A stretch of DNA of 64,000 nucleotides from an uncultured Bacilli bacterium (GTDB lineage Bacteria; Bacillota_I; Bacilli_A; RF39; UBA660). The position numbers were made by a program, and so were the translations under genes. The notes under the pieces were generated by a model. It was not told the origin of the DNA. It searched no databases and worked only from the letters and a program-made list of their open reading frames with translations. Location of the stretch: NCBI GenBank assembly GCA_910577505.1, contig CAJTLN010000001.1, positions 385,223 to 449,222 on the forward strand, written 5' to 3'. Positions 57,065 through 59,663 of the stretch are shown piece after piece (within the stretch, counting starts at the first letter, position 1; each line of letters begins with the position of its first letter).

Positions 57065-59386
57065 ATGGCAAAGGAAAAAGAAGAACTTTTTACTAACCTT
57101 CAAGTAGTAAAAAGAAATGGCAAAAAAGTCGATTTTAATGAAACAAAAATAGCTATAGCTATCAAAAAGGGTTTTGACGATGTAATTGAATCATCTAGAG
57201 ACGAAGAAGATGGAGTAGCAAAATACACTGAAAAAGATATGCAAAAAGTTTTTCATGATGTATTAGACAGAATAGAAAAAGATTATCAAGACAAAGATAA
57301 GATTAAAATTGAAGAAATTCAAGATTTAATCGAAACATCTTTAAAAGCAAAAAAATATGATGATGTATACGAATCTTTCACTAATTATAGAGAAAGAAGA
57401 GCTCAATCAAGAGCTGCATTTACAGAAGACAAAAGATCACATAAGTTCTTAAAAACATTAGAAGGTCTAGCTCTTAAGAGTGCATCAGAAGATGATACAA
57501 AAAGAGAAAATGGTAATATTGATGGAAACTCAGCAATGGGAACAATGTTACAATTTGGTTCTAATGTATCTAAAGAATTCTCAAAAACATATTTAATGAA
57601 AAAGAAATTCGCAGATGCTCATGATGAAGGAGACATTCATATTCATGATATGGACTTCGAAGCAATGGGAACAACAACATGCTTACAAATAGATTTAGAA
57701 AAATTATTTAAAAGTGGTTTTTCTACAGGACATGGTTATTTAAGAGAACCAAATGATATAATGAGTTACTCAGCACTTGCCGCTATTGCAATTCAATCAA
57801 ATCAAAATGATCAACATGGTGGTCAATCAATTCCATTATTTGATTATTATTTAGCACCAGGTGTTATTAAAACATATAAAAAACAATTAAAAATGACTAT
57901 TCAAGATTTACTTGATTATTCAGATTTTGCTTCATTTATAAATATGAAAACAGTTGAAGGAGAAATATCTAAACTTACAACTATCGAAAATGAAGTAGAA
58001 GTATTTGAAAAATTCTATAAAGAAAACGAATCTTTAAAAAGATTATTCAAAATGGCTCTTGAGAAAGCGGTAGCAAAAACAGATAAAATTACATTCCAAG
58101 CTATGGAAGCATTCATCCATAATTTAAACACAATGCATTCAAGAGCAGGAGCACAAGTACCATTTTCAAGTGTTAACTTCGGTACAGATACATCTGCTGA
58201 AGGACGTATGGTAGTTAAAAATTATTTACTTGCAGTAGATGCTGGATTAGGACATAGTGAAACACCTATCTTCCCAATTTCAATATTTAAAGTAAAAGAA
58301 GGAGTAAACTATAATCCAGAAGATCCAAACTATGATTTATTTAAACTATCTTGCGAAGTATCAGCTAAACGTTTATTCCCTAACTTCGAATTTATCGATG
58401 CTCCATTCAACTTACAATACTACGTTCCAGGTCGTCCTGAAACAGAAGTTGCTACAATGGGATGTCGTACAAGAGTTATGGGTAATGTTGTTGACCCTGA
58501 AAAGGCAATAGCACCAAGACGTGGTAATTTATCATTTACAACAATTAATTTACCGAGATTAGGTATTAAATATGGTATTGTTGGACCAAATGCAAATAAG
58601 AAAGCTGATATGAAAGGCTTCTATGCAGAATTAGATGAAAAAATAGAATTATGTAGAGACCAACTACTTGAAAGATTTGACATTCAATGTAATAAACGAG
58701 TTTATAATTTCCCATTCCTAATGGGACAAGGAAACTGGATGGATTCAGATAAATTAAAACCAAACGATAAATTAAAGAAAGTTTTAAAACATGGTACATT
58801 ATCAGTTGGATTTATTGGTCTTGCTGAATGTCTAGTAGCTTTAATTGGAGAACATCATGGTGAATCAACTAAAGCTCAAAAATTAGGACTAGAAATTATT
58901 GGACATATGAGAGAAAAACTTGATGAATATTCACAACAATATAAATTAAACTTCACTTGTTTAGCTACACCAGCTGAAGGATTAAGTGGAAGATTTACTA
59001 AAATAGATAGAGCAATATATGGAAAAATTAAAGGTGTAACAGATAGACCATATTACACAAATTCATTCCATGTACCAGTATATTACAACGTATCAATAGC
59101 TAAAAAAATTAAAACTGAAGCTCCATATCATGCATTAACTAATGCAGGACATATTAGTTACATAGAGCTTGATGGAGATGTAACAGAAAATGTAGAAGCA
59201 TTCGAATCAGTAGTAAGAATGATGAAAGAAGCTGGAATTGGTTATGGAGCAATTAACCACCCAGTAGATAGAGATCCAGTTTGTGGATACGTTGGAGTAA
59301 TTAAAGATGTTTGCCCAGGATGTGGACGTCGTGAAGGAGACCCAATTCCTGCAGAACTATTAAAAAATATGAATCTAAATAAATAG
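57065..59386 (+). CDS. nrdD: Anaerobic ribonucleoside-triphosphate reductase (class III, NrdD) with N-terminal ATP-cone. Its C-terminus ends at the zinc-ribbon. The glycyl-radical segment is not in this ORF.
   Basis: ATP-cone VVKRNGKKVDFNETKIAIAIKKGF. NrdD core. C-terminal VCGYVGVIKDVCPGCG aligns with the E. coli Zn-ribbon CDVCGY...CPKCG. Confidence 0.85.
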   Translation: MAKEKEELFTNLQVVKRNGKKVDFNETKIAIAIKKGFDDVIESSRDEEDGVAKYTEKDMQKVFHDVLDRIEKDYQDKDKIKIEEIQDLIETSLKAKKYDDVYESFTNYRERRAQSRAAFTEDKRSHKFLKTLEGLALKSASEDDTKRENGNIDGNSAMGTMLQFGSNVSKEFSKTYLMKKKFADAHDEGDIHIHDMDFEAMGTTTCLQIDLEKLFKSGFSTGHGYLREPNDIMSYSALAAIAIQSNQNDQHGGQSIPLFDYYLAPGVIKTYKKQLKMTIQDLLDYSDFASFINMKTVEGEISKLTTIENEVEVFEKFYKENESLKRLFKMALEKAVAKTDKITFQAMEAFIHNLNTMHSRAGAQVPFSSVNFGTDTSAEGRMVVKNYLLAVDAGLGHSETPIFPISIFKVKEGVNYNPEDPNYDLFKLSCEVSAKRLFPNFEFIDAPFNLQYYVPGRPETEVATMGCRTRVMGNVVDPEKAIAPRRGNLSFTTINLPRLGIKYGIVGPNANKKADMKGFYAELDEKIELCRDQLLERFDIQCNKRVYNFPFLMGQGNWMDSDKLKPNDKLKKVLKHGTLSVGFIGLAECLVALIGEHHGESTKAQKLGLEIIGHMREKLDEYSQQYKLNFTCLATPAEGLSGRFTKIDRAIYGKIKGVTDRPYYTNSFHVPVYYNVSIAKKIKTEAPYHALTNAGHISYIELDGDVTENVEAFESVVRMMKEAGIGYGAINHPVDRDPVCGYVGVIKDVCPGCGRREGDPIPAELLKNMNLNK

Positions 59387-59414
59387 AGATAGAGAAAAGA
59401 AAGAGGTAAAAGGT

Positions 59415-59600
59415 ATGAAAACAGAAAAAATGGAAAAGGTTGCTGAACAAAAAGTAGAAAGCAAAAAAATGGTTGGTGAAGGAGTAGGATTCGAAAGAAT
59501 CAGAAGAATCACTGGTTATCTAGTAGGTACAGTTGATAGATTCAACGATGGAAAAAGAGCCGAAGAAAAAGACAGAGTAAAACATACATTCGAAAAGTAG
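59415..59600 (+). CDS. Stand-alone glycyl-radical domain protein (61 aa) corresponding to the NrdD C-terminus.
   Basis: ERIRRITGYLVGTVDRFNDGKRAEEKDRVKH aligns with the E. coli NrdD C-terminus RRVCGYLGSPDARPFNAGKQEEVKRRVKH. RBS GAAAGAGG precedes the ATG. The 28-nt gap has two stops. Confidence 0.6.
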   Translation: MKTEKMEKVAEQKVESKKMVGEGVGFERIRRITGYLVGTVDRFNDGKRAEEKDRVKHTFEK

Positions 59601-59663
59601 TTAATTAACTGCTTTTTTCTTTGACTAAAAAATGATATTATTTAACTAGAATAGAGGAATATT

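What the first reader, a model, noticed from the sequence alone, without database searches (positions are those of the whole stretch)
59300..59605. NrdD split: glycyl-radical domain encoded as a separate 61-aa gene downstream of a truncated class III RNR
- **Truncated catalytic ORF:** the 773-aa NrdD ORF ends right after its zinc-ribbon (…VCGYVGVIKDVCPGCGRREGD…NLNK*).
- **Separate glycyl-radical gene:** after TAA, a second stop (TAG) and an RBS (GAAAGAGG), a separate 61-aa ORF (59415-59600) encodes ERIRRITGYLVGTVDRFNDGKRAEEKDRVKH. This aligns residue-for-residue with the glycyl-radical C-terminus of E. coli NrdD (RRVCGYLGSPDARPFNAGKQEEVKRRVKH).
- **Consequence:** the radical-harbouring Gly loop would be supplied in trans. 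This resembles the GrcA (YfiD) spare-part concept for pyruvate formate-lyase, but here for ribonucleotide reductase, and possibly as the obligatory arrangement.
- **No adjacent activase:** there is no nrdG within the window.
Basis: partly seen in the sequence, partly recalled or inferred. Interest (0 to 1): 0.62.

Follow-up and report, generated by a model that had tools for sequence, protein, structure and literature searches.

The report
Two-gene anaerobic ribonucleotide reductase, detachable radical
In this gut bacterium, and in at least about 590 other species and many phages, the loop that carries the glycine radical of the anaerobic DNA-precursor enzyme NrdD is made as a separate protein of about 60 residues, an arrangement I did not find described in the literature I could search.

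Summary
ORF 57065..59386 (773 aa) is a class III ribonucleotide reductase. It stops just after its zinc ribbon. ORF 59415..59600 (61 aa) has its own Shine-Dalgarno site and ATG and encodes the missing glycyl-radical loop (G34-Y35). Together the two ORFs tile the NrdD profiles with no gap.

It is not a sequencing error or a pseudogene:
- The exact 61-aa protein is found on 289 independent contigs.
- At least 594 species genomes encode a relative. In 71 of the 80 best loci it lies just downstream of a truncated nrdD, and 59 of the 80 loci also carry nrdG.
- The small gene's core is under strong purifying selection (median dN/dS 0.10).
- All catalytic residues of the large subunit are invariant.

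The large subunit's C-terminal tail is a decayed copy of the glycyl tail, so the split probably arose by tandem duplication. Phage contigs mostly carry the small gene alone.

The most likely mechanism is inferred, not shown. NrdG would put the radical on the small protein, which docks into the barrel of the large subunit, and only this small part would need replacing after oxygen damage. I found no description in the literature; a 2026 review says spare-part proteins are known only for formate lyases.

Verdict: new variant of a known kind, interest about 0.7.

The parts
57065..59386 (+). nrdD' : large (catalytic) subunit of a class III ribonucleotide reductase, 773 aa, lacking the glycyl-radical loop
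   Evidence: Pfam NRDD positions 1-531/562, E 4.4e-184. NCBIfam PRK07111 3-711/746, 1014 bits. Maps to 8P23 chain residues 8-708.
57101..57403 (+). ATP-cone (allosteric activity site), aa 13-113
   Evidence: Pfam PF03477, E 2.6e-13.
57509..57517 (+). N149-G-N151, equivalent to the NxN flap (Asn114/Asn116 of P. copri NrdD) that contacts the glycyl-radical domain
   Evidence: Alignment to 8P23. The role of the flap comes from PMC11226230. N149 and N151 are invariant in 56 large subunits.
57680..57682 (+). Cys206 on the first barrel strand (equivalent to Cys171 of P. copri NrdD)
   Evidence: Alignment to 8P23. Invariant in 66/66 large subunits.
58457..58468 (+). Finger-loop motif M465-G-C467-R. 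Cys467 is the thiyl-radical cysteine. The single-Cys MGCR motif marks the formate-dependent type.
   Evidence: Invariant in 66/66 large subunits. Motif classes from PMC9669993.
59273..59323 (+). Zinc ribbon with an unusual first ligand: D737-x-x-C740 ... C750-x-x-C753
   Evidence: Alignment to 8P23, which has CxxC...CxxC. D737 is nearly invariant in the family, and C740, C750 and C753 are invariant.
59330..59383 (+). C-terminal extension (CTE) of the large subunit, REGDPIPAELLKNMNLNK. It is a decayed copy of the start of the glycyl tail and has no radical glycine.
   Evidence: hhalign of the CTE profile against the small-protein profile: probability 88.6%, E 2.7e-6 over 46 columns. MAFFT places the FERIRRITGYLVG of fused relatives onto the CTE.
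59384..59392 (+). Two in-frame TAG stops (59384-59386 and 59390-59392)
   Evidence: Read directly from the sequence.
59400..59406 (+). Shine-Dalgarno-like AAAGAGG, 8 nt upstream of the ATG of the small gene
   Evidence: Sequence. An SD-like site precedes the small gene in 65 of 66 related pairs.
59415..59600 (+). Small subunit gene, 61 aa. It has a variable Lys/Glu-rich N-terminal extension (aa 1-20) and a conserved core (aa 21-57), GEGVGFERIRRITGYLVGTVDRFNDGKRAEEKDRVKH.
   Evidence: Pfam NRDD 533-562/562, E 3.6e-8. PRK07111 710-744/746. 8P23 chain residues 707-739. Median dN/dS 0.10.
59514..59519 (+). G34-Y35, the predicted radical glycine and the following tyrosine (equivalent to Gly711/Tyr712 of P. 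copri NrdD)
   Evidence: Alignment to 8P23 and PMC11226230. G34 and Y35 are invariant in 58 diverse small proteins.

Best explanation
The locus encodes a two-polypeptide class III (anaerobic, formate-type) ribonucleotide reductase.

The 773-aa protein carries the ATP-cone, the ten-stranded barrel with both catalytic cysteines, and the zinc ribbon. The 61-aa protein carries the glycyl-radical loop (G34) and the C-terminal helix and tail.

Inferred mechanism:
1. The radical-SAM activase NrdG abstracts the C-alpha hydrogen of G34 on the small protein. NrdG is encoded elsewhere in this genome; in most relatives it lies directly downstream.
2. The small protein inserts its loop into the barrel of the large subunit in the position the covalently attached loop has in ordinary NrdD, next to Cys467. 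Y35 and R42 would make the contacts that Tyr712 and Arg719 make in P. copri NrdD.
3. Catalysis then proceeds as in any NrdD.

Because oxygen cleaves the chain at the radical glycine, only the small protein would be lost on oxygen exposure, and the large enzyme could be re-armed with a fresh copy.

The split most likely arose by tandem duplication of the 3' end of a fused nrdD. The resident copy decayed into the present C-terminal extension, and the distal copy gained its own ribosome-binding site and start codon.

Shown here: gene structure, conservation, selection, operon context and residue mapping. Inferred: radical site, docking, activity and the benefit under oxygen.
For: **The two ORFs are complementary.**
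- They tile the NrdD profiles and the 8P23 sequence with no gap or overlap.

**It is not an artefact.**
- The exact 61-aa sequence occurs on 289 contigs from NCBI, JGI, ENA and Logan.
- The best 120 clusters at 90% identity are all 56-72 aa.
- The best 150 representatives at 50% identity are all short (52-196 aa) and all start with Met. They share the core but have unrelated tails.

**The genomic context is conserved.**
- At least 594 species genomes hold a relative.
- Of the best 80 loci, 71 have the small gene just downstream of a truncated nrdD. One is fused, 5 are unlinked and 3 have too little upstream sequence to tell.
- 59 of the 80 loci carry an NrdG-type radical-SAM gene, directly downstream of the small gene in most.

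**The small gene is translated on its own.**
- 65 of 66 small genes have an SD-like site and 60 of 66 start with ATG.
- The median intergenic gap is 28.5 nt (range -59 to 298).
- All three relative frames occur (29, 19 and 18 cases).

**Both genes are under selection.**
- For the 37-codon core in 75 loci, mean pS is 0.87 and mean pN 0.13. Median dN/dS is 0.10.
- C206 and M465-G-C467-R are invariant in 66/66 large subunits.
- N149, N151 and E638 are invariant, and G34 and Y35 are invariant. R42 is nearly invariant. These map to the flap, Glu581, Gly711, Tyr712 and Arg719 contacts described for P. copri NrdD.

**The truncated form dominates its subfamily.**
- 231 of the 239 closest large-subunit homologues are truncated and 8 are fused.

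**Origin.**
- The CTE is homologous to the glycyl tail.
- In four lineages the CTE still has G-Y at the homologous position.
Against: - There are no biochemical data. Nothing here shows that the small protein bears a radical or that the pair is active.
- nrdG is absent from the window and from 20-kb loci of its closest relatives, so an activase in this genome is assumed, not seen.
- I could not check whether the genome also has a conventional full-length nrdD or another RNR class.
- The one structure prediction of the joined pair gave no usable model of the interface. Residues 666-735 (most of the CTE and the whole small protein) and most of the zinc ribbon had pLDDT below 50.
- No expression evidence was available.
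Confidence: 0.78

Rival explanations
1. Facultative spare part. The small protein is a GrcA-like repair module that only rescues an oxygen-damaged NrdD, which normally uses its own glycine. The truncated nrdD would then be a secondary or specialised copy.
For: - Small genes exist unlinked to any nrdD in 5 of 80 genome loci and 58 of 80 viral loci.
- One orphan lies next to a rubrerythrin gene.
- Four large subunits keep G-Y at the homologous position of their CTE.
- GrcA/YfiD and T4 Y06I set the precedent (PMC8683613).
Against: - The window's large subunit has no glycine motif at all in its tail (REGDPIPAELLKNMNLNK), so there is no resident radical to damage.
- 231 of 239 close homologues are equally truncated.
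- The standard operon is nrdD'-small-nrdG, as expected for an obligate subunit.
Confidence: 0.1
2. Radical reservoir or regulator. The small protein is a decoy or buffer substrate of NrdG, or a regulator of the large subunit, and is not the catalytic radical carrier. The large subunit would obtain its radical in another way.
For: Not excluded by sequence data. The family has an unusual Asp in the zinc site and frequent C-terminal Cys pairs of unknown role.
Against: - No alternative radical site is apparent on the large subunit.
- The residues of the small protein that contact the barrel, flap and substrate network in P. copri NrdD (Y35, R42) are conserved together with their partners on the large subunit.
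Confidence: 0.06
3. One polypeptide is made after all, by stop-codon read-through, frameshifting, ribosomal bypassing (as in T4 gene 60) or protein trans-splicing.
For: The two ORFs are adjacent and only 28 nt apart. The last sense codon AAA is followed by TAG, and AAA recurs as codon 2 of the small gene.
Against: - Gap lengths range from -59 to 298 nt and all three frame relations occur.
- SD and ATG are conserved.
- Orphan copies exist.
- Other genes, including an HNH endonuclease, can lie between the two parts.
- No intein domains or splice-junction residues appear in the CTE or NTE.
Confidence: 0.03
4. Artefact or decay. The arrangement is a sequencing or assembly error, or a recently inactivated pseudogene.
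For: None beyond the a priori possibility for any single split gene.
Against: - The identical small protein is found on 289 contigs.
- The arrangement is conserved across phyla with saturated synonymous divergence and dN/dS about 0.1.
- There are two in-frame stops, a frame change, and about 40 extra residues of CTE and NTE that fused relatives lack.
Confidence: 0.01

Closest known systems
Conventional single-chain class III ribonucleotide reductase NrdD with activase NrdG (E. coli, phage T4, Prevotella copri 8P23)
   Same: It has the same fold family, the same catalytic cysteines (C206, C467), the MGCR formate-type finger loop, an ATP-cone, a zinc ribbon and an RxxTGY glycyl motif. In most relatives nrdG is adjacent.
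   Different: The glycyl loop and C-terminal tail are on a separate polypeptide of about 60 aa. The large chain ends in a decayed pseudo-tail. The first zinc ligand is Asp instead of Cys.
GrcA/YfiD and phage T4 Y06I, autonomous glycyl-radical 'spare part' proteins for pyruvate formate-lyase
   Same: Both are small stand-alone proteins that carry only a glycyl-radical segment, presumably activated by the partner's activase and supplied in trans. Phage-borne copies exist in both cases.
   Different: - The small protein derives from NrdD, not PFL.
- It does not match Pfam Gly_radical PF01228.
- It is about half the size of YfiD (61 aa against a 14.3-kDa protein).
- Its partner here has no glycine of its own, so it is an obligate subunit rather than a repair part.
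[quoted passage not shown]
Genes-in-pieces RNRs: Aeromonas phage Aeh1 NrdA-a/NrdA-b split by the MobE homing endonuclease, and split class II NrdJa/NrdJb (Pseudomonas aeruginosa, Thermus phage)
   Same: In each case an RNR catalytic subunit is encoded by two adjacent genes that must assemble, with extra C- and N-terminal extensions at the break. In one viral locus (L143) an HNH/NUMOD4 endonuclease sits exactly in the break.
   Different: - This is a different RNR class, and the break isolates the radical cofactor itself.
- No endonuclease remains in the window.
- The CTE here is a duplicate of the glycyl tail, not element-derived sequence.
- The arrangement is widespread in cellular genomes, not confined to a few phages.
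Interrupted phage nrdD genes (T4 group I intron; fragmented nrdD of Aeromonas phage phiAS4; intein-containing nrdD)
   Same: nrdD is the most frequently interrupted RNR gene in phages (PMC3653736).
   Different: Those interruptions are removed by splicing or are unexplained fragmentations at other positions. None was described as a conserved separate glycyl-radical gene.

Membership tests
Class III RNR catalytic subunit NrdD (PF13597 / TIGR02487 / PRK07111) | Barrel core matching the family profile above the curated cut-off | tested here: met
   Large ORF: PF13597 613.7 bits (cut-off 26.2); PRK07111 1014 bits (cut-off 764); TIGR02487 573 bits.
Class III RNR catalytic subunit NrdD (PF13597 / TIGR02487 / PRK07111) | Thiyl-radical cysteine on the finger loop and a cysteine on the first barrel strand | tested here: met
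   C467 in MGCR and C206. Both are invariant in 66/66 relatives. C206 aligns to Cys171 of 8P23.
Class III RNR catalytic subunit NrdD (PF13597 / TIGR02487 / PRK07111) | C-terminal glycyl-radical motif (R-x-x-[CT]-G-Y) on the same polypeptide | tested here: not met
   The large ORF ends at profile position 531/562 with no Gly motif. The motif RRITGY is on the separate 61-aa ORF. The pair, not the large ORF alone, meets the family definition.
Class III RNR catalytic subunit NrdD (PF13597 / TIGR02487 / PRK07111) | Four-cysteine zinc ribbon before the glycyl loop | tested here: inconclusive
   The ribbon is present, but the first ligand position is Asp737 (DxxC...CxxC) where 8P23 has Cys. This holds family-wide, including in fused members. 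Metal binding was not testable.
Class III RNR catalytic subunit NrdD (PF13597 / TIGR02487 / PRK07111) | Cognate radical-SAM activase NrdG | tested here: inconclusive
   Absent from the 64-kb window and from 20-kb syntenic loci. Present in 59 of 80 related loci, directly downstream of the small gene in most; one example confirmed as Fer4_12/Radical_SAM. The rest of this genome could not be searched.
Class III RNR catalytic subunit NrdD (PF13597 / TIGR02487 / PRK07111) | Ribonucleoside-triphosphate reduction dependent on a glycyl radical | not testable with these tools
   Needs anaerobic biochemistry and EPR.
GrcA/YfiD autonomous glycyl radical cofactor (Pfam Gly_radical PF01228; InterPro IPR011140) | Sequence match to the PFL-type Gly_radical domain | tested here: not met
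   The small ORF matches only PF13597 (NRDD C-terminus) and gives no PF01228 hit at E up to 1. NCBIfam and PHROGs likewise give only NrdD models.
GrcA/YfiD autonomous glycyl radical cofactor (Pfam Gly_radical PF01228; InterPro IPR011140) | Small stand-alone protein consisting essentially of a glycyl-radical segment | tested here: met
   A 61-aa ORF with its own SD and ATG. Relatives are stand-alone in genomes and phages.
GrcA/YfiD autonomous glycyl radical cofactor (Pfam Gly_radical PF01228; InterPro IPR011140) | Partner enzyme has its own glycyl domain, and the small protein replaces it only after oxidative cleavage | tested here: not met
   The partner large subunit has no radical glycine.
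Genes-in-pieces RNR created by a homing endonuclease (Aeh1 nrdA-a/mobE/nrdA-b type) | Homing endonuclease gene located in the break | tested here: not met
   The window gap is 28 nt with no ORF. An HNH/NUMOD4 gene occupies the break in viral locus L143 only.
Genes-in-pieces RNR created by a homing endonuclease (Aeh1 nrdA-a/mobE/nrdA-b type) | Extra C- and N-terminal extensions flanking the break | tested here: met
   A CTE of 17-51 aa after CxxCGR and an NTE of about 5-35 aa in most of the 66 pairs, absent from fused relatives. Here the CTE is a duplicate of the glycyl tail.
Split intein / translational recoding | Intein blocks at the break, or a fixed frame and spacing relation between the two ORFs | tested here: not met
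   No intein domain in the CTE or NTE. Gaps range from -59 to 298 nt and all three frames occur.

The most novel reading that the evidence does not exclude
The NrdD-type small proteins form a large, so far unnamed family of autonomous glycyl-radical carriers, the first outside pyruvate formate-lyase. In most carriers the small protein would be an obligate, exchangeable radical 'cartridge' for a glycine-less NrdD. Temperate and lytic phages of gut anaerobes would carry their own cartridge genes, without nrdD or nrdG, to re-arm or boost the host's reductase during infection. Fused, duplicated (CTE still with G-Y) and fully decayed forms would record an evolutionary path from a covalent cofactor, through a spare part, to a separate subunit.
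Probability: 0.5. Interest if true: 0.85.

Novelty: new variant of a known kind. Interest (0 to 1): 0.72.

Why it matters
**Textbook picture.** Class III RNR is the only de novo source of DNA precursors for many strict anaerobes. Its textbook description is a single chain with the radical glycine near its C-terminus. If the radical sits on a separate 7-kDa protein in hundreds of gut and rumen species, that description is incomplete.

**An open question becomes testable.** The field has asked whether glycyl-radical enzymes other than PFL have spare-part proteins (PMC8683613; PMC13450708). This system makes the question directly testable.

**A natural minimal substrate.** A free peptide-like substrate for NrdG would help in studying activation, which in fused enzymes needs a large conformational change.

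**Practical consequences.**
- NCBI labels the listed small ORFs 'hypothetical protein', and none of the four profile libraries searched has a model for them. Truncated nrdD genes may be mistaken for pseudogenes.
- The orphan copies in phages suggest a new kind of auxiliary metabolic gene.

**Evolution.** The decayed pseudo-tail gives a rare, readable record of how a covalent cofactor domain became a subunit.

Tried and rejected
**Structure of the pair.** I ran AlphaFold2 on the window's large (from residue 100) and small proteins joined end to end, with 104 homologues. Mean pLDDT was 71. Residues 666-735 and most of the zinc ribbon were below 50, so nothing can be said about docking.
- A proper block-diagonal alignment could not be produced with the tool's MAFFT (local tests).
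- Rows taken from loci are not admissible.
- The second job was not used.

**Shared metal site between subunits.** I tested whether Cys pairs at the end of the CTE pair with Cys pairs in the small protein's tail. They do not correlate: 2, 27, 0 and 37 in the four cells, Fisher p = 0.19. Rejected.

**Read-through, frameshift, bypass or trans-splicing.** Rejected on variable gaps and frames, conserved SD and ATG, orphan copies and absence of intein signatures.

**Sequencing error or pseudogene.** Rejected.

**Membership in GrcA/Gly_radical.** Rejected by Pfam.

**Rfam and tRNA scans of the window.** Nothing relevant near the locus. The promoter and terminator scan was uninformative: no terminator between or after the two genes was detected by the simple model.

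**Literature.** Eight full-text searches and nine papers checked found no description of a split NrdD or an NrdD-type spare part. Subscription-only papers were not searchable.

**Single origin of the split.** A neighbour-joining tree places the four fused relatives inside one Clostridia-type subclade among split ones. It has no support values and no outgroup, so it cannot distinguish secondary re-fusion from repeated splitting.

**Rest of this genome.** I could not determine whether it has nrdG or another RNR elsewhere.
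Full report
**1. What is in the sequence**

ORF 57065..59386 (+) encodes 773 aa and ORF 59415..59600 (+) encodes 61 aa.
- The large ORF ends ...HPVDRDPVCGYVGVIKDVCPGCGRREGDPIPAELLKNMNLNK.
A second in-frame TAG lies at 59390-59392.
- AAAGAGG (59400-59406) lies 8 nt before the ATG of the small ORF.
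- The small ORF is in a different frame.
- The window has 25% G+C.

**2. The two ORFs are complementary pieces of one enzyme**

- Pfam NRDD: the large ORF matches profile positions 1-531 of 562 (E 4.4e-184). The small ORF matches 533-562 (E 3.6e-8, above the curated cut-off). The large ORF also has an N-terminal ATP-cone.
- NCBIfam PRK07111: the large ORF matches 3-711 of 746 and the small ORF 710-744.
- Closest solved structure, Prevotella copri NrdD (8P23): the large ORF maps to chain residues 8-708 and the small ORF to 707-739.

According to the paper on that structure (PMC11226230), residues 676-739 form the glycyl-radical domain. It consists of a structural zinc site, then the buried loop with Gly711, then a helix and tail. 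The break in the window therefore falls inside this domain. The zinc ribbon stays on the large protein. The loop (G34-Y35), helix and tail are on the small one.

Residue mapping:

| Window residue | P. copri NrdD equivalent |
|---|---|
| C206 | Cys171 |
| N149 / N151 | NxN flap (Asn114 / Asn116) |
| E638 | Glu581 |
| G34 / Y35 / R42 (small protein) | Gly711 / Tyr712 / Arg719 |

C467 lies in the MGCR finger-loop motif, which marks formate-type enzymes.

**3. Not an artefact and not a pseudogene**

- The exact 61-aa sequence is on 289 contigs from four independent sources.
- The 120 best clusters at 90% identity are all 56-72 aa.
- Among 1.84 billion representatives at 50% identity, 2055 match at E up to 1e-3 and 645 at E up to 1e-10. 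The best 150 are all short (52-196 aa). All start with Met and share the core GEGVGFERIRRITGYLVGTxDRFNxxKRAEExDRVKH between unrelated tails.
- Syntenic loci show the same 772-aa plus 61-aa pair.
- Across 75 loci, the 37-codon core has mean pS 0.87 and mean pN 0.13. Median dN/dS is 0.10 for unsaturated pairs.
- In 66 large subunits, C206 and M465-G-C467-R never vary.
- In a 56-sequence alignment, N149, N151, E638 and the zinc-ribbon cysteines are invariant.
- In 58 diverse small proteins, G34 and Y35 are invariant and R42 nearly so.

**4. How widespread, and in what context**

The best 80 loci come from several groups:
- Uncultured Bacilli (the window's own group, close to Candidatus Coprovivens).
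- Oscillospiraceae, Lachnospiraceae and other Clostridia.
- MAGs labelled Muribaculaceae, Desulfovibrionaceae and Fibrobacter.
- Succinivibrionaceae, including the cultured type strain Succinivibrio dextrinosolvens DSM 3072 (L079, junction shown).

| Arrangement in the best 80 genome loci | Loci |
|---|---|
| Truncated nrdD immediately upstream of the small gene | 71 |
| Fused | 1 |
| Small gene with no nrdD within 2.6-5 kb | 5 |
| Too little upstream sequence to tell | 3 |

An NrdG-type radical-SAM gene is present in 59 of the 80 loci, directly downstream of the small gene in most. One example was confirmed by Pfam.

The usual unit is therefore nrdD'-small-nrdG. The window's lineage is unusual in having nrdG elsewhere.

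For the 66 pairs analysed:
- 65 small genes have an SD-like site and 60 start with ATG.
- The median gap is 28.5 nt (range -59 to 298).
- The three possible frame relations occur 29, 19 and 18 times.

This rules out a conserved recoding signal.

Of the 239 closest large-subunit homologues from two searches, 231 are truncated and 8 are fused. One fused example is a protein NCBI assigns to Acetivibrio clariflavus, with the junction ...CGRKEGNVKFERIRRITGYL.

**5. Origin**

All split large subunits carry a C-terminal extension after CxxCGR that fused relatives lack. Its consensus is EGEGVxVEKLxxL followed by lineage-specific sequence.
- A profile of these extensions aligns to the profile of the small proteins over 46 columns (hhalign probability 88.6%, E 2.7e-6).
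- MAFFT independently aligned the FERIRRITGYLVG...RFND of fused proteins onto IEKLRELRKKYP...RFYD of split ones.
- In four lineages the extension still has G-Y at the homologous position.

The simplest reading is a tandem duplication of the 3' end of a fused nrdD. The resident copy then decayed and the distal copy became a separate gene.

An unsupported neighbour-joining tree places the four fused forms inside one Clostridia-type subclade. This is compatible with secondary re-fusion but does not prove it.

In one viral locus (L143), an HNH/NUMOD4 homing endonuclease lies exactly between the truncated nrdD and the small gene. That nrdD also carries a LAGLIDADG-type insert. Mobile elements do exploit this break, as MobE does in the nrdA of phage Aeh1.

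**6. Phages**

IMG/VR holds at least 584 relatives.

| Arrangement in the best 80 viral loci | Loci |
|---|---|
| Small gene alone (no nrdD within the locus; at least 2.6 kb upstream) | 58 |
| Linked to a truncated nrdD | 6 |
| Fused | 2 |
| Too short upstream | 12 |
| Not classified (motif variants) | 2 |

Only 3 of the 80 viral loci contain an nrdG.

Neighbours of the orphan genes include terminase subunits (L100) and a PAPS-reductase-like gene with an exonuclease gene (L086).

This parallels T4 Y06I, the phage homologue of the PFL spare part YfiD. It suggests the small protein works as an independent module with a host large subunit and host NrdG.

**7. Mechanism**

Shown here:
- A glycine-less but otherwise intact NrdD.
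- A separately translated, strongly conserved glycyl loop.
- An adjacent activase gene in most relatives.
- Conservation of both sides of the contacts that hold the loop in P. copri NrdD.

Inferred:
- NrdG activates G34 on the small protein.
- The loop docks beside Cys467.
- Catalysis is as in ordinary formate-dependent NrdD.
- After oxygen cleavage, only the small protein has to be replaced.

From general knowledge of glycyl-radical enzymes, a free loop should also be a more accessible substrate for the activase. In fused enzymes the loop must first swing out of the barrel.

My attempt to model the complex failed for technical reasons (and section 9).

**8. Comparison with what is known**

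- The pair together meets the definition of NrdD. The large ORF alone does not, because the radical motif is missing.
- The small protein works like GrcA/YfiD but is not a member of that family. It has no PF01228 match, and its partner lacks a resident glycine.
- Split RNRs are known for class I (Aeh1 NrdA) and class II (NrdJa/b). Interrupted nrdD genes in phages involve introns, inteins or unexplained fragmentation.
- None of the four profile libraries I searched has a model for the small protein (Pfam, NCBIfam, PHROGs). Of the listed examples, NCBI calls them 'hypothetical protein' and JGI calls them 'anaerobic ribonucleoside-triphosphate reductase'.
- Eight full-text searches found no description.
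- A June 2026 review states that formate lyases are the only GRE class with identified spare-part proteins (PMC13450708). A 2021 paper speculates that others may exist (PMC8683613).
- The literature library lacks most subscription journals, so prior mention elsewhere cannot be excluded.

**9. What did not work or remains open**

- Complex modelling failed.
- A shared Cys site between the subunits was tested and rejected.
- The roles of the Asp in the zinc site and of the frequent C-terminal Cys pairs are unexplained.
- I could not locate nrdG, or exclude a second RNR, in this genome.

**10. Verdict**

- This is a new variant of a known kind of enzyme. It is widespread, apparently undescribed and directly testable in a cultured organism.
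- Interest is 0.72. Confidence that it is a functional two-polypeptide NrdD is 0.78.

Noticed in passing
window 59330-59383; loci L005-L084 (ends of the large nrdD genes): The C-terminal extension of split large subunits is a decayed paralogue of the glycyl-radical tail (hhalign probability 88.6%, E 2.7e-6). In L030, L040, L067 and L073 it still has G-Y at the homologous position. This points to a tandem-duplication origin of the split.
   Followed up: yes
window 59273-59323: The first ligand position of the zinc ribbon is Asp (D737-x-x-C...C-x-x-C) instead of Cys. This holds in nearly all members of this NrdD subfamily, fused ones included. L057, L079 and the Eggerthella phage have Cys.
   Followed up: partly
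L085-L164 (IMG/VR viral contigs), e.g. L100:4001-4120, L086:4001-4159: 58 of 80 viral loci carry the small glycyl-radical gene alone, with no nrdD in the locus. Only 3 of the 80 viral loci have an nrdG. Neighbours include terminase (L100) and PAPS-reductase and exonuclease genes (L086). They look like phage auxiliary 'radical cartridge' genes.
   Followed up: partly
L143:323-4120: A truncated phage nrdD (960 aa, with a LAGLIDADG intein-like insert) is followed by an HNH/NUMOD4 homing endonuclease gene (3174-3659) and then the small gene. The endonuclease sits exactly in the break.
   Followed up: partly
L165 (Eggerthella phage EL753P1, OP172808.1) 3741-7170: This isolated phage has a truncated nrdD, then a 102-aa ORF, then a small gene interrupted by what looks like a 5-nt insertion right before the T-G-Y codons. 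It is annotated as a 42-aa hypothetical protein. This could be a sequencing error, an inactivation or a recoding site.
   Followed up: no
L157:3815-4159, L077:4671-5147, L141:1-204: These are variant small proteins in which a folded-looking N-terminal domain of about 55-115 aa (...VDGE[YF]VD...) replaces the short Lys/Glu-rich extension in front of PF[ED]RIRRITGYL. No family was assigned.
   Followed up: no
L032:5001-5144 and neighbours; L064; L049; L055; L077: These bacterial small genes are unlinked to nrdD. In L032 the gene lies between a possible Crp-like regulator (assigned by eye, not tested) and a rubrerythrin-like gene. In L064 it sits in a prophage-like region. Two conserved paralogue types seem to exist in Succinivibrionaceae: MQTRLHA..., linked to nrdD (L050, L079), and SYCRL.PDH..., found without an adjacent nrdD (L049, L065).
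   Followed up: partly
ends of the large nrdD genes in L007, L013, L014, L016, L021, L034, L051-L053, L060, L066, L079 and others: 29 of 66 large subunits end in a Cys pair (NCCK, CGCK, CDC, GCICTG). The window's does not. The pairs do not correlate with Cys in the small protein's tail (p = 0.19). Their function is unknown.
   Followed up: partly
window 55452-56609 and 60172-62141: The flanking genes are a FIST-domain protein upstream and two YibE/F-family membrane proteins, a pseudouridine synthase and a LemA-like gene downstream. The order is syntenic with L001-L004, which have an extra aldehyde dehydrogenase gene before nrdD that the window lacks.
   Followed up: no
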